A stretch of 28,381 bases of DNA. Source: a virus. Its lineage: Duplodnaviria; Heunggongvirae; Uroviricota; Caudoviricetes. A program made the translations under genes and the position numbers. The DNA lies in the IMG/VR virus record IMGVR_UViG_2534681833_000008; one strand, 5' to 3'. Position 1 is the stretch's first letter; every line of letters starts with the position of its first letter. The notes under the pieces were generated by a model. It saw nothing but the letters and a program-made list of their open reading frames with translations, ran no database searches and was not told where the DNA came from. Shown one piece after another: positions 1,586 to 9,725 of this stretch.

Positions 1586-3070
1586 TTATTCATTAAGCCA
1601 TGCCAGAGCTTCATCAACCTGCGCTTCGTCTTCGACGCTAAGCACTTCATCCTGGGGAACATAATCCGCCAGCATAGCGAAACAATATGTATCCCAATGG
1701 TCTGGTGAGTGCAGGTTGAGTTTTTTCTTCATATCCTCCTTACTCATCACCTTCCATTGACCTGCGGAGTTAATCCCTACAGGGATTTTCGACGCTTCCT
1801 CAATAGTTTCATTACCCTTATCCAGTCTCATACGACCTGATTTTACGGCCTCTGCGGCTTGAACGTTGGCATAAGCACGCTTATCAAAGTACAGGCTCTT
1901 ATCTTCACGGCTATGCATCTTTTTACCCCAGCGTATACGCTGTACGGTAATACCATAATACTCGTACATCAGATCCGCCGTTGCTTTACCCAGGCCATCG
2001 CCGTCTATCGCTATGGTGATATTTGGGAATCGCTCAGGATTACATTCTGCGAAAATTTTGGCGGCAAGCTGCGTTTCTGTAACGTCTGTGTATTCCAGCA
2101 TTCGATAGTTGATTACACGGCGTTTATTTCGCTGGCCGGACACCATCATGATATTGATAACTGACTTATCCCGTCCCGTACCACCAGCAACGTCCACACA
2201 TGCAAGCCAGCCCCATCCTTTGGCAATCTTAACTTTCCGCCGCGTTGCACGTTCAACCTCATCACGTCCAAGAAGGAAGCCGTCCTGTGATTTAGGGAAT
2301 AGGCCACGCACCTTAATCATGTACATAGGGTTATCACGCCCGCCGTACTCCGCCAGCTTCATTTTGATAAATTCTGGCGTTACCAGCGGTGATTCCTCAC
2401 TGTTAAGCGTGATCGCCGTATAAACGCCATCTGGGTTACCAGGACGCTTGGCCAGTTTATGGTGAGTATCGTAGAAATAGCCGCTTGGGCGTGTAGGCTG
2501 TGACAGTAATAAGATGCGGTTATCCTGTCCGGTAAGAGCACCGGTGATGATACCGAAAGCTCTATCACTGACACCGGAGGCTTCATCGATAATATACAGA
2601 AGATGATCTGCGTGTTCACCGGCGAGAGCTTCTTCACTTCCCAGACGAAAGCCCTTCGGTACTACAGTCCATACACCTTTACCAGTAACCTCATAGAAAG
2701 CGGTTTCTGTCAGAACAAAATAATCAGCAAGCCATGGAAAACGGCTGGTGGCAGTAGCCCAGTTTATCTTGATGTACTTGAATATACCGGTCATTACCTG
2801 CTGAATTTTGTTCGCAACGATAATGGCGCGGGCACCGGGATACATGATTATGAACAACATGATCATGATAGAAGTCATGTCTGATTTCCCGGTACCGTGA
2901 CCAGACGAAACAGATGTCTTGCTACCCTGTTCCTGCACAGACTCAATAATCAGATCCTGCTGCCAGGTAGGTGTTTTGCCGAACAAAACATCAGCGGCAG
3001 CAATCCAGTCATAACGATATAGCGCCACCAGCTCGCGCCAACGTGGATCCGTTACGCAACTTCTGGCCAT
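1586..3070 (-). CDS. pacB: Terminase large subunit PacB (494 aa)
   Basis: Walker A-like SGHGTGKS near the N-terminus; start ATG overlaps the pacA stop (TAATG); size as remembered for P1 PacB. Confidence 0.9.
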
Positions 3071-4263
3071 TAATCATCATCCCCGTATAGCTTGCGGGTA
3101 ACTTCTTCGTCTTCCTCCTCGTCTTCGTCCAGGTCTTGTTCCAGCCATGGGTCGTTTGATACACCTTCAGTATCAACATCTCCATAACCGCCTGTATCAA
3201 CGATATCGGCGATTTCTTCCCTACGCTGCTCAATCCACAATGCGGCATCGGCGCGGCGGTTGGCGGCCCGTTCTCGCGCAACTTTGTCCAGATCTTCAAG
3301 AGAAGGGCCACCGACGGCTGTTTGCCTTTCCTCATCATCGGTATTGGTCTTAGGAGCACGCAGATCGGCTTTGATTTGCTCCAGCATCAGGGGCGGCACT
3401 TTCCCGCCATGCGCCTCGATGAATTCAGCTGCTTCCAGCACTGACCAGTTATTTTCACGCTTTCGTTCGTATGCCAGCTTAACAATGCCAGCTTGCCCCA
3501 TAGATAAAGCGTGCTTTTCCGCCTCCCGGCTTTCTTTTCGATAGTTATTCCGGATGCTGTAAATGGTGTTGATCAGACTGCTTATCTGCGCGGAACAGCT
3601 GTTTAGCATGCTCGCGATACGGTATTCAGGCGGAGTTCCTTCATCATCGTCTTTTTGCTGATCGCGAATTTCCTGCACCAGGCGAATACACGTATCCCTG
3701 GCGTTCTCCAGCATAAGGAGATGAGAGAGAGACTTTTCCAGAAGAGTGGTTTCCAGAACATCAGCCCCGGACCGACGCAACATAGCGCGCGCGGCCTTCC
3801 GCGCTTCAACGTTATCTATCAGGTAATCGCCAGCTTCGAATTCAAAGCGTTCACCATCATCATCCAGGGTGTCGCGTTCCAGGCGATCACGTAAGGTCCG
3901 GCGGGCGCGGGTGATCACGTCATGATCATCTGAACGATCATTTATGCGCTTATTTTGGCGCTTCGCATTCTCGACTGCGGCACTGACAACGGCATTAACT
4001 CTCTGTTTTTCCGCTATTTCAGCCGCAATATGATCACCTGCATGTTGATCATTAGAGTGATCAATGATCATGCTTTTTAGTGGCTTCCTGACTGGCTTAT
4101 TTGGCTTGCGGCTGTCCGCAGTCCTGGTGTCTTCTTTGAAGGCACGGAGATAACGACGTGCGGTATTAGGGTTAAGATTAAACTCGGCGGCATACTGTGC
4201 GATGGTGTAACCACCATCTCGCGCCAGGCGAGCAAAATTCTTTTTGTGATCGTCCCAGGTCAC
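3070..4263 (-). CDS. pacA: Terminase small/pac-recognition subunit PacA (397 aa)
   Basis: GTG start at 4263 preceded by AAGGAAG SD and an in-frame TAA; N-terminal HTH-like segment; acidic C-terminal tail; contains the pac hexamer clusters; size as remembered for P1 PacA. Confidence 0.85.
3912..4070. other. pac packaging site: seven TGATCA/CGATCA hexamers in two clusters (3 + 4) inside pacA
   Basis: Hexamers at 3912-3917, 3923-3928, 3935-3940 and 4031-4036, 4046-4051, 4058-4063, 4065-4070, each containing a Dam GATC; about 160 bp span, matching the known P1 pac architecture (two hexamer clusters, Dam-regulated). Confidence 0.8.
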
Positions 4264-4889: not shown

Positions 4890-5933
4890 TTATCTAACGC
4901 TCGACGAGTGACTTGTGATAGCGCCGACTCCAAGCGCGTAATCAAAGAACAATCGTTGATGCATCGCCAGCCTACCGTGTGTTTTCTCCCAATTATCGCG
5001 GTCACGCTCAATATCACGCTGGCATGACTGGCACAGAGGAATAGCATAAATGTCATGCGCGCATAATCGACTATGACGAACGATATAAGGCGTAATGTGA
5101 GCGCCAGCTCCCGCAGCTCCACAGCCACAGCATGGACGGGAAGCAACAAAGTCCATGTACTCAGGTAATTTTAGCGATTGAAGTTTTGGTATTTTGAAAT
5201 GCGCCATACCTGGGTCGGAGTCAACATCCACAGGACATACTTTTGCACGCATCGGCGCGGCGCGTTCTTCCATCATCTGAACATATGCTATAGCGCGATC
5301 GTCATACGGGCGAATATCCGCCTCTTTCAGAGGTCCGCTATCCTGCGGAGTAGCCTTCATCTTATTTATTGATATGCGGCAGACTTCTTCCGGCATCAGG
5401 TGCATCATGTTGCGCATGAAAGCCCACCAGCACAGTTCCTGAATACTTAAATCATGGCCATCTGAAAGCCCCATTTCCTGACGGGCGACATCCAGTATCC
5501 AGTTAACGCGATTATTATGCAGCGTTTCTTTCAGCTCATTAAAACCACGCATCCGGTAATGGTTATCGTGATGCCAGCACAACAACACCGCGCTATTGTC
5601 TCGTTCAGCGTGGACAATATGGTTGTCACACCAACTACGATCTGCGGCCTGGCATTGCCCCTCTTTCCTGCGCAACCACGCCACCAGCGAGTCAATTCCA
5701 CCAATACGGCGAAACAGTTCATCGCTGTTAAAAAACGGCTGCAACGCCTCATTTGTTGCCATAGTTTGCTCGGAAACAACGAGGCCGTCGTCCATGTGCT
5801 CGATTAACTCACGCGGCACCGGCTCCATAATAAATTTACGGCCAGCCTCCACCAGCTTTCTGACCTCCTGGTCCACTTTGAACGTGGCGAGGCCAAGCTC
5901 TTTCTGTACAAATGGAGTAATTACGGCTTTCAC
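4890..5933 (-). CDS. Hypothetical protein, 347 aa, Cys-rich C-terminus (pdc-region, post-doc)
   Basis: GTG start at 5933 with AAGG SD; long ORF between doc and lpa; C-terminal CCGCG...C..C motif suggests metal binding. May correspond to P1 pdcA/pdcB, but I cannot confirm. Confidence 0.5.
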
Positions 5934-5960
5934 ATCACACCTTTAATCACTGATTGGGCT

Positions 5961-6140
5961 TTATCTGCTGCCCGGCATTCTCTGTTTAAGCACAACCATT
6001 TCCTGACGGCATAACACAGCAATAGCGGTCCTGGCACCAATTTGCTTACCAACCAGGTATTGCTTTACCTCGCGGCGACTCACGCCATCAAGAAGCATCT
6101 TTAACGCTTCACGGGACAATTTGTTGTATTTACGTGCCAT
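5961..6140 (-). CDS. Small basic HTH-like protein, 59 aa (pdc-region)
   Basis: ATG at 6140 with GGAG SD 8 nt upstream, 5 nt after the doc stop. The ORF track's upstream ATG at 6161 overlaps doc and lacks an SD. Confidence 0.4.
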   Translation of the reverse strand: MARKYNKLSREALKMLLDGVSRREVKQYLVGKQIGARTAIAVLCRQEMVVLKQRMPGSR

Positions 6141-6144
6141 TAAT

Positions 6145-6525
6145 CTACTCCGCGGAACCATACAATCTACGTAACGTGTCGGCGACAGAAGATACAGATA
6201 TCTCTCCGGTCGCAGCCCCTACGGTAAGGTCTGCCAGTTCAGGTGAATCAAATACCTGCACCCCGTTACGGCGTAGAAATAACAGCGCACTGTTTAGCGC
6301 GGTACGCTTATTGGCATCATTGAATATATGCCCTCTCGCTGTAGCCACCAGGTAGGTGGCGGAGACTTCGAAAAGGTCGGTGATCTCTTCGTAGGCAACT
6401 CTGGCCTGAACTCTCCCGATAATGGCCTCTGCCCTACCCGGATCTGACATTCCCGGCAAGCCGCCGTAGCGGTTTATATTCGCATCATGAAGCGCAATAA
6501 GTTCTTCCGGTGATATATGCCTCAT
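6145..6525 (-). CDS. doc: Doc toxin (death on curing; Fic-fold kinase)
   Basis: 126-aa product [17 protein letters not shown]...RRLYGSAE is near-identical to P1 Doc as remembered; start overlaps the phd stop. Confidence 0.95.
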
Positions 6526-6746
6526 TATCGGTTAACCAGTTCCTTGTTGGTGGAGTCCAGGGTGTCAAACAGGGATGCAAATTCAGCATCCAGCGCCGCT
6601 TTTTTGTAGGCTTCAAAAGTAGCCTTGCTGACAATTACTGCTGGCTCACGGCCTCTGCGGGTGATTTCAACCTCTTCCCCGGCTTCAACATTGTTGAGCA
6701 CTTCAGAAAGGTTGCCGCGCGCGGTACGGAAGTTAATGGATTGCAT
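6525..6746 (-). CDS. phd: Phd antitoxin (prevent host death), 73 aa
   Basis: [17 protein letters not shown]...TNKELVNR matches P1 Phd; ATG at 6746 with GAGG SD. The track's GTG at 6752 adds two residues and is less likely. Confidence 0.95.
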
Positions 6747-6751
6747 AAACA

Positions 6752-6790
6752 CCTCGTGTACTCGTTATGTGTACACAATTATAAACTTCA
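6752..6790 (-). promoter_or_regulatory. phd-doc promoter/operator region with palindromic Phd-binding-type sites
   Basis: Perfect palindrome TGTGTACACA at 6770-6779 and a related GTGTAC half-site at 6758-6763, immediately upstream of phd beside a TATAAT-like hexamer. Phd/Doc autoregulation through palindromic operators is established for P1. Confidence 0.5.
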
Positions 6791-6818
6791 CAGGCATAAA
6801 GCACCAGCACTTTGCAGC

Positions 6819-7208
6819 TTAAATAACCGGACAATCATCAAATTCCCCACTTCGGGCATCATTGATGACATGAGTGATCACACCAAAAACAGCATTACTG
6901 CCCGTGTAACCATCGTCATCTACTGGTAACGCCTCTTTCTTCCCGGTGCTTAAATCCTCCAGGTGCTGGCGCGGATACTTTCGGTATCTCTTTATGCGAT
7001 ATTCACCCTCCATAGCGCACACAAGCAGCGAACCATCAACTGGAGTAAGCGAAGAATCAACCACCAGCAAAGCACCCTGCAATATTCCCTCGCGGTGATG
7101 GCTGTCTGCCGCCCGCATGAAGTAGGTCGCTGATGGATGCCTGATTAGTTGCTGATCAAGAGAAATTCTGCTTTCAACATAATCCGCCGCAGGAGAAGGG
7201 AAGCCCAT
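6819..7208 (-). CDS. humD: HumD, UmuD'-like S24 peptidase-fold protein (129 aa)
   Basis: Aligns with the E. coli UmuD C-terminal domain (LLVVDSSLTPVDGSLLVCAMEGEYRIKRY ... VFGVITHVI) and lacks the N-terminal cleaved arm, as in P1 HumD; SOS box upstream. Confidence 0.85.
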   Translation of the reverse strand: MGFPSPAADYVESRISLDQQLIRHPSATYFMRAADSHHREGILQGALLVVDSSLTPVDGSLLVCAMEGEYRIKRYRKYPRQHLEDLSTGKKEALPVDDDGYTGSNAVFGVITHVINDARSGEFDDCPVI

Positions 7209-7229
7209 AGCGTTTTCACCTCAATAATA

Positions 7230-7245
7230 CTGTTCATTTATACAG
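7230..7245. promoter_or_regulatory. LexA (SOS) box, CTGT-N8-ACAG
   Basis: taCTGTtcatttatACAGca, canonical spacing with AT-rich centre; 22 bp upstream of the humD start, within the divergent intergenic region. Confidence 0.7.
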
Positions 7246-7382
7246 CATACATTAAAGAGACACCTTTGGTGCAAACGCGTTATGTACATCAACCACCGCA
7301 GATGATTTTGTGCGCTTTGCTACTATTCATCACCAACGGATCAGCGTAACCTCGTTGCCAATCAGTTAATAAGGAATTAGCT

Positions 7383-7967
7383 ATGCCTGCCCGCATTCCT
7401 CTCGATCCTGTATTGCCCAAAAATTTTGACTGCACTCCTAACGAGAAACGCTCTAAAGCTCAGTTGGACGCCTGGTGGGACCATCCATATGGGGTTACAC
7501 AACCTGACGGGAAAATTGTAGTTTATTGTCTGAATGGTGGGGCGTGGGACCGTCCATCCGTGCTTGGTTTGGCAAATAACTATGATGAAGCCTGTGAACT
7601 TGCCGAAAGACAGCAGGCAAGCTGGGTAAAAACACGTTATGAACCGACATTCATGTTTTCAAAAGAACCGCCATTTATACTGGCGAGGATGCCGCAGCGA
7701 CCGGATCATCAACAAGAAATTGTTGCTGAATTTTCCTCTAGGGATGAGATGAATCTCTTCTCATTAAAGCAGGAAGAAAGGGATCGCGTCGAAGTGTCTC
7801 CAACTCTCGACCACAACCGGATGAACCTGGCCCAACTCGCCTGGTACAGCAAAGAATTAGAGATGTCTATTGCCCGACTTGAAAACGAAAAAGCCGCTAT
7901 CCAAGCCCAGCATGAAGTAGTTCTGAACCGGATTAGAGAAATGCAAAACGATAACAGGGGATTTTGA
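7383..7967 (+). CDS. Hypothetical protein, 194 aa, coiled-coil C-terminus (possible lxr-equivalent)
   Basis: ATG with AAGGA SD; divergent from humD across the LexA box; no motif recognised. Confidence 0.55.
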   Translation: MPARIPLDPVLPKNFDCTPNEKRSKAQLDAWWDHPYGVTQPDGKIVVYCLNGGAWDRPSVLGLANNYDEACELAERQQASWVKTRYEPTFMFSKEPPFILARMPQRPDHQQEIVAEFSSRDEMNLFSLKQEERDRVEVSPTLDHNRMNLAQLAWYSKELEMSIARLENEKAAIQAQHEVVLNRIREMQNDNRGF

Positions 7968-8330
7968 ATGGCTAAAATCGAGTACCATCGCGATCGCGGT
8001 AATTACCTGGAAATATACGATCATGAATCTCTTAACGATATCAACGATGCGTTATATGAATACTGTGAAAAAATGAGCATCACAGATGCACCTGACGCAT
8101 TTGTCGAGCTACCGGTATATCTCCGCGACATCTATGCAATACGGACGCCGCCCGTATCGGTAATTCACATTGGCTATGTCCGCCTGTCCATCGAAGAAGA
8201 TGAAGATCGTTATATCGTACGCCACTATACATTGGACAGAAAAGAGCTTCCCAATGAATGGAACATGAGTAATTTCTACAACGGTGAATATGGCTTAAAA
8301 CCCGCTATGAATGGCGCGGGCATTGCGTAA
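7968..8330 (+). CDS. Hypothetical protein, 120 aa
   Basis: ATG abuts the upstream stop (TGAATG) with GGGGA SD, implying translational coupling in a two-gene operon. Confidence 0.55.
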   Translation: MAKIEYHRDRGNYLEIYDHESLNDINDALYEYCEKMSITDAPDAFVELPVYLRDIYAIRTPPVSVIHIGYVRLSIEEDEDRYIVRHYTLDRKELPNEWNMSNFYNGEYGLKPAMNGAGIA

Positions 8331-8341
8331 TAGCCTAACAA

Positions 8342-8593
8342 CTATTCTGTTTTCTGATATGCCGGATCGTTCCCTTTTGGCAACTGGAGGCTTAACTGCC
8401 GGTAGTGCCGTAGACGTTCCATGAAATAGGTGCGCAGATTCTCTGGTTGCTCGCGGGCTACCTGTTCAGCTATGACAGGTATGTTCAATCGCTCTTTGTA
8501 GGCAACCCCCCTGGCAGCCAGGTCAACGTTAACTTTATTCCTTTCTTCCTGGCTTTTGGCTGCTATGTTCCATTCGTTCATATTAAATCCCAT
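8342..8593 (-). CDS. hot: Hot, homolog of DNA polymerase III theta subunit (HolE-like)
   Basis: [42 protein letters not shown] aligns closely with E. coli HolE. The start may be the second ATG (MNEW...), 12 nt downstream. Confidence 0.8.
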
Positions 8594-9049
8594 CCAGAAT
8601 AATTGAATAACGGCTATTATTTAGTCGCCGCAATATCTTCAAAGTTTTTTTCTCACCCCATTGCTTTTTGCGCACAGCTTATCTGGCTTGCGGTGCGCCG
8701 AAATGTAAATTCGCCTTCAGAGTTATCCACAAAGTTATGCACTTGCAACGAGGCCATTTTCCTCATACTGTGTTTGCACACACAGGAAATGGATATTTTA
8801 TTAATTGAATTTTATTAAATAATAATGATAAGGAGAAAATTTGAGATGTAATCATGACATTAATAGATAGGGCCTGCATTACAGGCCCCAACTACATCAA
8901 GGAATTCACAGTTCCCTGATTTTTATACCGAAAACATGTGCCGTAAGTTCACGTTAACGACTTTCTTTCACCGAATCCAACTATATAGAGGTTGGGTTTC
9001 TACGTCAACGTGAGAGCACACAGCTTTACATTTGACGAGGATTACCCTG

Positions 9050-9187
9050 ATGATTGTATTTTTTCAGTTTCTAAGTGCATTTTTAAATGCGCCTGTTCTT
9101 AGCCAAGTGCTGGCGATTGTCTTCATCGTGGTTCTGATATGGTTTTTCAAGTCAGTGATAAACAGAGGCGTGCGCTGGCTTATTTAA
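9050..9187 (+). CDS. Candidate small hydrophobic protein, 45 aa
   Basis: ATG at 9050 preceded by GAGGA SD at 8-nt spacing; predicted single TM helix (MIVFFQFLSAFLNAPVLSQVLAIVFIVVLIWFF...). Not in the ORF track because it is under 60 aa. Confidence 0.3.
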   Translation: MIVFFQFLSAFLNAPVLSQVLAIVFIVVLIWFFKSVINRGVRWLI

Positions 9188-9370
9188 TGTCGCGCTGAGA
9201 TATTAATTCCCTTGCTGTTTAACCATTTTTTGTGTGTGCTGGTGAGCGTGTGAAGGCTCAATTTGTTGCCCACCAGTATTTACTATTTCTAAGCTCCACA
9301 GTGTCACTTCCGCACAAACAACTTAGCGCGGAATCAGTATTCGGCCCAAGATGTAAAAAGCCAACCTGCG

Positions 9371-9595
9371 TTATGGTTCGCATTTCCAAATAGTGTTCTG
9401 AACGCCCGTGCCGGGCGCGAGATGTGGATTAGCGTTCGCGCTATGCTGATATACGGCTTTAGACTTTCCATATTGCTGACAGGCTTTATCTGCGGTTTTT
9501 TGCAGGCTATCCAGCCCATACCAGCCATCAGACTGGATGCTTACCTTTTCACCGTCATTGTATTGCACCATCGCGAACCCAAACATAGCTATCAT
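9371..9595 (-). CDS. Hypothetical small protein, 74 aa, hydrophobic N-terminus
   Basis: E. coli-like codon usage, in contrast to the overlapping plus-strand ORF 9422-9634, which uses rare AGA/ATA codons; weak SD. Confidence 0.3.
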   Translation of the reverse strand: MIAMFGFAMVQYNDGEKVSIQSDGWYGLDSLQKTADKACQQYGKSKAVYQHSANANPHLAPGTGVQNTIWKCEP

Positions 9596-9725
9596 CGCAC
9601 CGACAATACCGCTTTTCCAAAAAGCTCTAATTAGGTCATTCGTTGCCTAATGTCCGAACTGCTAAAGCATCAAAGTTGCTGTAGAATCACCGCCAATTAC
9701 TTAAGCCTGAAATAAGTGGAAGAAA

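What the first reader, a model, noticed from the sequence alone, without database searches (positions are those of the whole stretch)
7209..8330. SOS box shared by humD and a divergent two-gene operon of unknown function
A canonical LexA box (CTGT-N8-ACAG, 7230-7245) lies in the 175-bp region between humD and two translationally coupled genes (194 aa and 120 aa) with no recognisable domains. The position corresponds to where P1 has its LexA-regulated lxr locus, but the content here is a two-gene module. An SOS-induced module of unknown function in a prophage is a good candidate for a DNA-damage-triggered defence or anti-defence function.
Basis: partly seen in the sequence, partly recalled or inferred. 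Interest (0 to 1): 0.55.

Follow-up and report, generated by a model that had tools for sequence, protein, structure and literature searches.

The report
Known P1/P7 humD–lxr SOS locus
This is the already-annotated humD–lxr region of P1/P7-type phage-plasmids: a real LexA (DNA-damage) operator that travels with the repair gene humD, next to two real genes of still unknown function whose SOS control is plausible but unproven.

Summary
CTGT-N8-ACAG lies at 7230-7245 in the 174-bp gap between humD (6819-7208, minus) and two abutting plus-strand genes (7383-7967, 194 aa; 7968-8330, 120 aa).

- **Gene identities.** The 194-aa gene is lxr itself: 94% identical to P1 Lxr and 97% to P7 Upf94.2. The 120-aa gene is P7 Upf93.6, which P1 lacks. 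The P1 and P7 GenBank records already annotate this LexA site.
- **Whose operator it is.** The box was present in 55 of 55 lxr loci with humD adjacent. It is kept in lxr-less phages (D6, RCS47, 813R1). It was present in only 1 of 19 lxr loci without humD, and in 0 of 51 chromosomal or plasmid homologues. SOS control of lxr–upf93.6 is therefore an inference from adjacency.
- **Function.** Neither protein matches Pfam, NCBIfam or PADLOC, and the structure models have no significant PDB neighbour. Both are acidic.
  - The Lxr N-domain is a widespread family on mobile elements (926 plasmids; Alpha-, Beta- and Gammaproteobacteria).
  - Upf93.6 relatives sit beside ssb in the leading region of IncN-type plasmids.

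This is a known locus with unknown protein functions. An anti-defence role is possible but unsupported.

The parts
6819..7208 (-). humD, the UmuD'-like S24 peptidase-family gene whose 5' end carries the LexA operator
   Evidence: Pfam Peptidase_S24 at 5.7e-09. It is 99-100% identical to P1 and P7 HumD.
7228..7247 (.). LexA (SOS) box TACTGTTCATTTATACAGCA. The core CTGT-N8-ACAG is at 7230-7245, 21 nt upstream of the humD start codon and 137 nt upstream of the lxr ATG.
   Evidence: 16 of 20 matches to consensus. Annotated as a LexA site in P1 and P7. Arms invariant in 55 of 55 humD-linked loci.
7244..7274 (-). Weak candidate humD promoter: -35 TTGCAC at 7274-7269, 19-nt spacer, -10 TATGCT at 7249-7244. 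The -10 overlaps the right arm of the LexA box. This is inferred only.
   Evidence: Script scan, 7 of 12 matches. The equivalent hexamers are better in P7 (TATACT) and RCS47 (TTCACA-18-TATACT), read from alignment A6. The stricter scan found no promoter here.
7209..7287 (.). Regulatory segment linked to humD. It is retained, with the box, in P1-like phages that lack lxr.
   Evidence: Alignment with RCS47, 813R1 and D6; similarity ends near window position 7287.
7288..7382 (+). Leader found only in lxr-carrying elements. It is 98% conserved among them. No convincing sigma-70 promoter and no Rfam match.
7383..7967 (+). lxr orthologue (P1 Lxr, P7 Upf94.2), 194 aa. It has a conserved N-domain (about residues 1-130) and a C-terminal long helix (149-191).
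   Evidence: 94% and 97% identity. AlphaFold2 mean pLDDT 88. 104 homologues. Found on 926 plasmids.
7955..7960 (+). Shine-Dalgarno AGGGGA for the second gene, inside the 3' end of lxr. Stop and start codons abut (TGAATG at 7965-7970).
7968..8330 (+). upf93.6 orthologue (P7 Upf93.6), 120 aa, an acidic small alpha+beta protein. Absent from P1.
   Evidence: 97% identical to P7. PHROG 5797, unknown function. AlphaFold2 mean pLDDT 75.6. Homologues.
8342..8593 (-). hot, the DNA polymerase III theta-like gene. It is convergent with the lxr operon, with an 11-bp gap, and forms the right border of the variable slot.
   Evidence: Pfam DNA_pol3_theta at 2.6e-32. P1 annotation.

Best explanation
**What the locus is.** This is the humD–lxr region of a P1/P7-type phage-plasmid. 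It is 99.9% identical to a plasmid of E. coli ETEC1731. It is in the P7/SJ46-like form, which carries lxr (Upf94.2) plus upf93.6.

**Regulation.** The palindrome at 7230-7245 is the LexA operator of humD. It abuts the probable weak humD promoter, 21 nt upstream of the humD start codon. In an undamaged lysogen, host LexA would hold humD off. RecA-stimulated LexA self-cleavage would release it. The UmuD'-like HumD could then join host UmuC for translesion synthesis.

**The two plus-strand genes.** lxr–upf93.6 is a facultative cargo cassette in the variable slot between humD and hot. It is one co-transcribed, translationally coupled unit. It is probably, but not demonstrably, also derepressed in the SOS response, because no other promoter is evident between the box and lxr.

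**Likely action of the proteins.**
- Lxr is a member of a widespread, acidic protein family of mobile elements, with an added coiled-coil tail that probably dimerises it.
- Upf93.6 is a small acidic protein whose relatives lie beside ssb in conjugative-plasmid leading regions.
- My best guess is that both bind a conserved host protein or nucleoprotein complex of DNA replication, repair or restriction, rather than act as sequence-specific DNA binders.

**Shown versus inferred.**
- Shown: gene identities, box conservation and its linkage to humD, family distributions, acidity, lack of known folds.
- Inferred: promoter positions, LexA control of lxr, and every statement about what the two proteins do.
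For: **Identity and synteny.**

**The box is linked to humD.**
- Present in 55 of 55 humD-adjacent lxr loci.
- Kept in the lxr-less phages D6, RCS47 and 813R1.
- Arms invariant while the spacer varies in about 8 forms.

**The slot is variable.** Of 641 plasmids with humD, about 19% have humD+lxr+upf93.6 and roughly 40% have humD+hot with no lxr. These shares are estimated from an evenly spaced sample of rows.

**Coupling.** TGAATG junction with an AGGGGA Shine-Dalgarno.

**The pair is kept together in diverged elements.** L033, L034, L140, L141 and L143 carry the pair at 64-69% (Lxr) and 53-58% (Upf93.6) identity.

**Some support for SOS control of the pair.**
- A perfect LexA box lies upstream of the pair in L033, which has no humD.
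- No alternative promoter of 8 or more of 12 matches exists in 7195-7400.

**Protein properties.**
- Acidic: median pI 5.0 for the Lxr family and 4.8 for the Upf93.6 family.
- High sequence conservation of the Lxr N-domain across Alpha-, Beta- and Gammaproteobacteria, 47-68% identity.
- Neighbours are repeatedly DNA-metabolism genes: humD and hot here; umuC in sphingomonads; traG and a nuclease in alphaproteobacterial elements; a resolvase operon in 47-kb Pseudomonas plasmids; RecA, a gp32-like protein, a 5'-3' exonuclease and Pol III alpha in Klebsiella phage-plasmids.
- An Upf93.6 homologue lies about 7 kb from the predicted oriT, beside ssb, in an IncN/MOBF plasmid.

**Dispensability.** lxr is dispensable for P1 lytic growth by CRISPRi (PMC10695390).
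Against: - No transcription start, LexA binding or expression data for lxr–upf93.6 were available. The P1 genome paper and the HumD paper could not be read.
- The box is 137 nt from the lxr ATG. Only 1 of 19 humD-less lxr loci has a box, so SOS control is not a conserved property of the genes.
- No promoter on either strand scores above 7 of 12.
- The P1 record instead predicts a humD promoter inside lxr.
- The functional guess rests only on neighbourhood, charge and conservation.
- Neighbours are heterogeneous, and umuC adjacency occurs in only one lineage.
- NCBI's annotation pipeline (PGAP) labels the Lxr family 'DNA-binding protein'. I could not trace the basis for that name, and it would contradict a protein-binding role.
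Confidence: 0.6

Rival explanations
1. The LexA box controls humD only. lxr–upf93.6 is transcribed from its own promoter in the lxr-specific leader (7288-7382), or by read-through in the lytic cycle, and is not an SOS function. The name 'LexA-regulated' would then be a historical guess.
For: - The box tracks humD (55 of 55 loci) and stays when lxr is absent.
- 18 of 19 humD-less lxr loci and 0 of 51 distant homologues have a box.
- The 66-69% identity lxr clade has its own conserved leader containing a TAGAAT -10-like element and no LexA box.
- Similarity between elements with and without lxr ends at about 7287, so the cassette brings 95 bp of its own upstream sequence.
- The P7 record annotates the site only as 'regulation of humD expression'.
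Against: - No recognisable promoter lies in 7288-7382.
- L033 has a perfect LexA box upstream of the pair without humD.
- The P1 annotators assigned the site to both genes.
- Divergent promoters commonly share one LexA operator (established knowledge, not tested here).
Confidence: 0.3
2. lxr–upf93.6 would be a DNA-damage-triggered anti-defence module (or defence module). For example, the acidic proteins would neutralise a host restriction or abortive-infection system, or another element's defence, when the prophage is induced.
For: - Both proteins are small and acidic.
- Upf93.6 relatives lie in the leading region of IncN/MOBF plasmids next to DUF932, ssb and a korA-like gene. Leading regions are enriched in anti-defence genes (PMC11541004).
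- A Yersinia homologue sits among Mrr-like, PLD and HEPN genes.
- The slot is a variable cargo site, and in this window it is followed by a complete type I restriction-modification system.
- The 3' half of lxr is far more diverged than its flanks.
Against: - No PADLOC hit.
- No similarity to any solved structure.
- No literature on these proteins.
- lxr knock-down has no plating phenotype on a laboratory host.
- The Lxr N-domain's 47-68% identity across three proteobacterial classes is unusual for arms-race proteins.
- SOS control itself is unproven.
Confidence: 0.15
3. The two coupled genes form a toxin-antitoxin or abortive-infection pair, with a DNA-binding antitoxin first and a toxin second.
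For: Two short, abutting genes on a plasmid next to phd-doc. The first is labelled 'DNA-binding protein' by PGAP.
Against: - Each gene very often occurs without the other. lxr is alone in P1 and in the most widespread P1-like type (P0012) and in hundreds of large plasmids.
- Upf93.6 relatives are alone in IncN plasmids, Salmonella plasmids and a Yersinia island.
- No toxin or antitoxin Pfam or PADLOC domains.
- Both proteins are acidic.
Confidence: 0.03

Closest known systems
Bacteriophage P1 humD–lxr region (AF234172: LexA site, lxr 'LexA regulated function', humD, hot)
   Same: The order humD – LexA box – lxr – hot is the same. The box has the same 16-mer. Lxr is 94% identical. The 174-bp intergenic region is about 98% identical.
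   Different: P1 has no second gene; its lxr is followed directly by hot. The window's Lxr has a different C-terminal end (…MQNDNRGF versus …VQNG). Beyond hot, the window carries a type I restriction-modification system instead of P1's upfM–pmgV genes.
Phage P7 / Salmonella phage SJ46 upf94.2–upf93.6 (AF503408, KU760857)
   Same: The same two-gene cassette (97% and 97% identity) beside humD and the annotated LexA site.
   Different: In P7 an IS903 follows upf93.6 and hot is missing. The window keeps hot 11 bp downstream.
Classical divergent SOS operators of E. coli and of plasmid umuDC-like operons
   Same: A CTGT-N8-ACAG palindrome with an AT-rich spacer, next to a UmuD-family gene and close to its start.
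   Different: humD encodes an already-truncated UmuD'-like protein without a umuC partner (P1 annotation; McLenigan 1999, recalled from memory). Promoter hexamers are poor. LexA binding was not tested here.
Leading-region establishment and anti-defence genes of conjugative plasmids (ssb, psiB, ardA and similar; PMC11541004)
   Same: Upf93.6 relatives (37% identity) occupy that region of IncN/MOBF plasmids next to ssb. They are small and acidic, like many such proteins.
   Different: There is no sequence or structural similarity to any characterised member. In this window the gene is in a prophage-plasmid, not in a transferred leading strand.

Membership tests
E. coli-type LexA operator (SOS box) | Palindrome CTGT-N8-ACAG with good match to TACTGTATATATATACAGTA | tested here: met
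   Exact arms at 7230-7245. 16 of 20 matches to the consensus.
E. coli-type LexA operator (SOS box) | Arms conserved in orthologous loci while the spacer is free to vary | tested here: met
   55 of 55 humD-linked loci keep both arms. About 8 spacer variants exist.
E. coli-type LexA operator (SOS box) | Overlaps or abuts the promoter of the regulated gene | tested here: inconclusive
   Only weak candidates, 7 of 12 matches. For humD, the -10 TATGCT at 7249-7244 abuts the box. For lxr, ATAATA-18-TACATT spans it. The stricter scan finds none.
E. coli-type LexA operator (SOS box) | Bound by LexA, with damage-inducible expression of the flanking genes | not testable with these tools
   Needs EMSA or footprinting and reporter or RNA data. 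The primary papers (PMC523184, PMC94175) are not held in the library.
P1 Lxr orthologue | Full-length high identity to AAQ14072 and the same position between humD and hot | tested here: met
   94% identity over the full length. Synteny shown.
P7 Upf93.6 orthologue | High identity to AAQ07573, immediately downstream of upf94.2/lxr | tested here: met
   97% by tblastn to the P7 locus. Same junction.
SOS regulon membership of lxr–upf93.6 | LexA box associated with the genes themselves across lineages | tested here: not met
   1 of 19 humD-less loci has a box. 0 of 51 genome loci do, for either gamma-type or alpha-type boxes.
Known anti-phage defence systems (PADLOC) | Match to a defence-system protein model | tested here: not met
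   0 families at E ≤ 1 for either protein.
Type II toxin-antitoxin pair | Obligate co-occurrence of the two genes, with recognisable toxin or antitoxin domains | tested here: not met
   Each gene frequently occurs alone. No such domains.
AP2/integrase-type or other known DNA-binding fold (the PGAP label 'DNA-binding protein') | Significant structural or profile similarity to a DNA-binding domain, with a basic character | tested here: not met
- Foldseek finds nothing with E below 0.1; the best AP2-type hit (1gcc) has probability 0.41.
- No Pfam match in 55 members.
- Family median pI is 5.0.
Conjugative-plasmid leading-region gene (for Upf93.6 relatives) | Located within a few kb of oriT on the leading side, among ssb-type establishment genes | tested here: met
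   In IncN/MOBF plasmid NZ_CP103467 the homologue is at 14352-14693. The mobF and stbABC operons diverge around 7356-7832, which is the predicted oriT. The gene sits in the array DUF932–ssb–trfB-like–homologue. This holds for the 37%-identical relatives, not for the window gene.

The most novel reading that the evidence does not exclude
The Lxr N-domain would define a large, structurally unassigned family of acidic proteins on mobile elements: at least 926 plasmids, plus integrative elements and phage-plasmids of Alpha-, Beta- and Gammaproteobacteria. These proteins would target a highly conserved host DNA-replication, repair or restriction factor. In P1-like phage-plasmids the family would have gained a coiled-coil tail, a partner (Upf93.6) borrowed from conjugative-plasmid leading regions, and a LexA operator. 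Together these would form an SOS-triggered host-takeover or anti-defence module.
Probability: 0.15. Interest if true: 0.6.

Novelty: already known. Interest (0 to 1): 0.28.

Why it matters
The finding adds nothing to what the P1 (2004) and P7 GenBank records already annotate: a LexA site between humD and lxr/upf94.2–upf93.6.

What is worth keeping is narrower.
- Comparative data show that the operator belongs to humD. The twenty-year-old label 'LexA-regulated function' for lxr is an untested guess.
- The humD–hot gap is a cargo slot: empty, lxr alone, or lxr+upf93.6.
- The Lxr N-domain is a common and strongly conserved protein of proteobacterial plasmids and integrative elements. It has a confident predicted fold with no solved relative and no known function.

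A simple set of reporter and pull-down experiments could settle both the regulation and the target. P1-like phage-plasmids are widespread carriers of resistance genes in Enterobacteriaceae.

Tried and rejected
- **Domain and profile searches for both proteins.** Pfam, NCBIfam, PADLOC and PHROGs gave nothing informative.
- **PDB sequence-profile searches with both family alignments.** Nothing below E = 0.04.
- **Exhaustive HMM search with the Upf93.6 profile.** It returned long proteins of 650-4100 aa with multiple hits. The two scanned members with interpretable Pfam matches are BspA-type leucine-rich-repeat proteins (the third showed no LRR domains), so I rejected these hits as summed repeat artefacts.
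- **Link to translesion synthesis.** An Lxr-N gene abuts umuC in sphingomonads, but only in one lineage (four identical loci) plus one plasmid where umuC is 4 kb away. This is not a general association.
- **Obligate operon partner for the Lxr N-domain.** None found. Neighbours differ by lineage: resolvase, traG plus a nuclease, HEPN-Toprim, an H-NS-like gene.
- **Sigma-70 promoter prediction in the intergenic region.** No site of 8 or more of 12 matches.
- **Rfam scan of 6700-9800.** No match.
- **Literature.** No paper characterises Lxr, Upf94.2 or Upf93.6. Searches for 'lxr' are swamped by the liver X receptor. The P1 genome paper and the HumD paper are not in the library.
- **Toxin-antitoxin reading.** Rejected because each gene commonly occurs alone.
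Full report
**1. Observation**

The window sequence shows humD on the minus strand (6819-7208), a 174-bp gap, and then two plus-strand ORFs of 194 aa (7383-7967) and 120 aa (7968-8330). The stop of the first ORF directly abuts the start of the second (TGAATG). An AGGGGA Shine-Dalgarno lies 7 nt upstream of that start.

CTGTTCATTTATACAG at 7230-7245 is the only CTGT-N8-ACAG in the window. By itself it is not significant: 0.30 are expected, and 24 of 100 shuffles have at least one. The 20-mer matches the LexA consensus at 16 of 20 positions.

**2. What the genes are**

Megablast against phage genomes hits P1, P7, SJ46 and relatives at 95-97%.
- The P7 record annotates humD, a LexA protein_bind site, upf94.2 and upf93.6, in exactly this arrangement.
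- The P1 record annotates humD, a 'LexA binding site in the regulatory region of lxr and humD', lxr ('LexA regulated function') and then hot.
- The 194-aa protein is 94% identical to P1 Lxr and 97% to P7 Upf94.2.
- The 120-aa protein is 97% identical to P7 Upf93.6.
- The minus-strand ORF at 8342-8593 is hot, the theta-like gene (Pfam 2.6e-32).

The second gene is a known P7/SJ46 ORF that P1 lacks. A plasmid of E. coli ETEC1731 (NZ_CP122822.1) is 99.9% identical over the whole locus.

**3. Whose operator is it?**

Three comparisons bear on this.

(a) P1-like phages D6, RCS47 and 813R1 have no lxr. In them hot lies directly upstream of humD, and they keep the box at the same distance from humD. 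Alignment shows that similarity between elements with and without lxr runs from humD to about window position 7287 and then stops.

(b) I scored 74 lxr-family loci that have at least 250 bp of upstream sequence. These came from IMG/VR plus loci fetched earlier.
- The box was present in 55 of 55 loci where humD is adjacent.
- It was present in 1 of 19 loci where humD is not adjacent.
- In 51 further homologues from Alpha-, Beta- and Gammaproteobacterial genomes there was no gamma-type box, bar one single-mismatch near-match 268 nt upstream in L086, and no alpha-type (GTTC-N7-GTTC) box within 300 bp.

(c) Across the humD-linked loci the CTGT and ACAG arms never change, while the spacer occurs in about eight variants. 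That is the signature of selection on LexA contacts.

The box is thus a real operator that belongs to humD.

The one exception is instructive. In L033, a diverged P1-like contig with lxr–upf93.6 but no humD, a perfect TACTGTATACATATACAGTA lies between the pair and a divergent 84-aa gene of unknown family. Again it is about 21 nt from the divergent gene's start. The other four humD-less pairs (L034, L140, L141, L143) have no box. The 66-69% identity lxr clade (L034, L139-L142) has its own conserved leader with a TAGAAT element.

**4. Promoters**

The tool's scan found no sigma-70-like site in the gap. My looser scan found only candidates with 7 of 12 matches.
- For humD: TTGCAC-19-TATGCT, whose -10 (7249-7244) abuts the box. 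The equivalent hexamers read better in P7 (TATACT) and RCS47 (TTCACA-18-TATACT).
- For lxr: ATAATA-18-TACATT, spanning the box.

The P1 record instead predicts the humD promoter inside lxr. That cannot apply to lxr-less phages that keep humD and the box.

The gap is 98% conserved among lxr-bearing elements, even where Lxr itself is only 79% identical. Identity between the window and that element is 97-100% through humD, the gap and the first ~100 bp of lxr. It falls to about 60-70% in the 3' half of lxr. It returns to 98-100% in hot. No Rfam family matches.

LexA control of humD is well supported. LexA control of lxr–upf93.6 is plausible, because there is no other evident promoter and divergent promoters commonly share an operator. 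It remains unproven.

**5. Lxr**

There are 104 sequence homologues. NCBI names most of them 'DNA-binding protein', and one submitter used 'lxr domain protein'. I could not find the basis for that name.
- No Pfam, NCBIfam or PADLOC model matches, in the window protein or in 55 family members.
- The alignment shows a very conserved N-domain of about 125 residues. Invariant residues include W31, W32, D33, P35, C49, L50, G52, G53, D56 and R57. A C-terminal extension is present only in P1-like and large enterobacterial plasmid versions.
- AlphaFold2 gives mean pLDDT 88. It predicts three strands and a long helix (36-85), two more strands and a helix, then one long helix at 149-191.
- The family is acidic: median pI 5.0, range 4.5-5.7. 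This does not fit a typical sequence-specific DNA binder.

The family is common: 926 of 72,556 plasmids, mostly large conjugative Klebsiella plasmids. It also occurs in Bradyrhizobium, Sphingobium, Burkholderia and others at 47-68% identity.

Neighbours differ by lineage.
- A 67-aa gene – Lxr-N – resolvase operon in 47-kb Pseudomonas plasmids.
- traG – SNase-like nuclease – Lxr-N in alphaproteobacterial elements, in 17 loci.
- A RecA / gp32-like / 5'-3' exonuclease / Pol III alpha cluster and a HEPN-Toprim gene in Klebsiella phage-plasmids.
- An H-NS-like gene in a contig that also carries StiP/PELOTA-type genes (possibly a large IncHI-type plasmid).
- umuC in one sphingomonad element.

There is no constant partner and there are no domain fusions. 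CRISPRi knock-down of P1 lxr does not affect lytic growth (PMC10695390).

**6. Upf93.6-like protein**

It occurs on 188 plasmids.
- About 135 are P1-like, at 95% identity or more.
- About 50 are 34-kb conjugative IncN/MOBF plasmids, at 37% identity.

In the IncN plasmids it lies in the array DUF932–ssb–trfB/korA-like–homologue, about 7 kb from the mobF/stbABC divergence that marks oriT. That is the leading region. Other relatives follow ccdAB and two unknown genes in Salmonella plasmids, or lie among Mrr-like, PLD and HEPN genes in Yersinia.

**7. Are the two genes a unit?**

They are adjacent, with gaps of 0-15 nt, in the window clade and in diverged P1-like elements at 64-69% (Lxr) and 53-58% (Upf93.6) identity. 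Some functional link is therefore likely.

Each gene is also very often found alone. That argues against an obligate two-component system such as a toxin-antitoxin pair.

Among 641 plasmids carrying humD, 121 (about 19%) carry most of the humD–lxr–upf93.6(–hot) segment. From an evenly spaced sample of rows, roughly 40% have humD next to hot with no lxr. The rest are P1-type or other arrangements. The humD–hot gap is a cargo slot.

**8. Mechanism and rivals**

*Best explanation (confidence 0.6).* This is the known humD operator plus the P7-type lxr–upf93.6 cargo cassette. LexA represses humD. The cassette is probably derepressed together with it. The two acidic proteins most likely act by binding a conserved host factor of DNA metabolism or restriction. 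That last part is a guess based on neighbourhood, charge and conservation.

*Rivals.*
- The box controls humD only (0.3).
This overlaps with the best explanation's functional guess.
- A toxin-antitoxin pair (0.03).

**9. Verdict**

The locus is already known and annotated, so novelty is low. The residual interest lies in the uncharacterised, widespread Lxr N-domain family, and in the fact that 'LexA-regulated' has never been tested for lxr.

My statements about HumD function (a UmuD' homologue that complements SOS mutagenesis and is poorly expressed) come from the P1 annotation and from my memory of McLenigan et al. 1999. That paper could not be opened.

Noticed in passing
window 9726-15773: A complete type I restriction-modification system lies beyond hot, where P1 has upfM–pmgV: hsdM 9726-11282, hsdS 11279-12535, and an intact 1058-aa hsdR-sized ORF at 12597-15773. 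The P1 record notes that the flanks of this region resemble sequences around plasmid EcoDXXI and R124 hsd loci. In the 99.9%-identical plasmid NZ_CP122822 an IS1203 lies after hsdS and no hsdR is listed.
   Followed up: partly
window 8594-9725: A stretch of about 1.1 kb between hot and hsdM has no ORF longer than 74 aa. There is no Rfam match. Its content was not examined further.
   Followed up: no
L033 3286-3321: A near-perfect palindrome of about 36 bp (CAAACACATACTGTATACATATACAGTATGTGTTTG) contains a consensus LexA box. It lies 21 nt from a divergent 84-aa gene with no Pfam match, in a P1-like contig that has lxr–upf93.6 but no humD. This may be an unrecognised SOS gene.
   Followed up: partly
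window 7383-8330 versus L023: There is a sharp mosaic pattern. humD, the gap and the first ~100 bp of lxr are 97-100% identical to the commonest P1-like type. Identity decays to 60-70% in the coiled-coil half of lxr, which is followed by the upf93.6 insertion/deletion. hot is again 98-100% identical. This suggests recombination or diversification focused on the 3' half of lxr.
   Followed up: partly
L057, L058, L059, L062 (Sphingopyxis, Novosphingobium and two sphingomonad metagenome assemblies), about 2501-4171: An Lxr N-domain gene lies 30 bp from a convergent umuC-like Y-family polymerase gene (Pfam IMS, IMS_C, DUF4113). This echoes the humD adjacency in P1, but it occurs in only this one lineage.
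   Followed up: yes
L003-L006 (47-kb Pseudomonas, Enterobacterales and Burkholderia plasmids), 5790-7040: A three-gene operon with overlapping stops and starts: a 66-67-aa unknown gene, the Lxr N-domain gene (135 aa) and a serine resolvase. It lies next to the Fic/VbhA-type and RepA_C genes. This may link the family to multimer resolution.
   Followed up: no
L007-L010 (Klebsiella phage-plasmids), 6001-7763: The Lxr N-domain gene sits between a gp32-like / 5'-3' exonuclease / RecA cluster and a HEPN_Toprim_N + HEPN_RiboL-PSP gene that is likely a defence gene.
   Followed up: no
L002 3387-3413 (P1 record), equivalent to window about 7686-7712: The P1 GenBank record predicts the humD promoter inside the lxr coding sequence, about 480 nt upstream of humD. 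This cannot hold for lxr-less phages that keep humD and the LexA box, so it is probably a mis-prediction.
   Followed up: partly
one search hits P0143-P0191: The Upf93.6 profile gives E-values down to 5e-11 against very long proteins through 3-19 summed weak repeat matches. Two of the three scanned (P0147, P0149) are BspA-type leucine-rich-repeat proteins; the third (P0143) showed no LRR domains. This is a repeat artefact to beware of in exhaustive HMM searches.
   Followed up: yes
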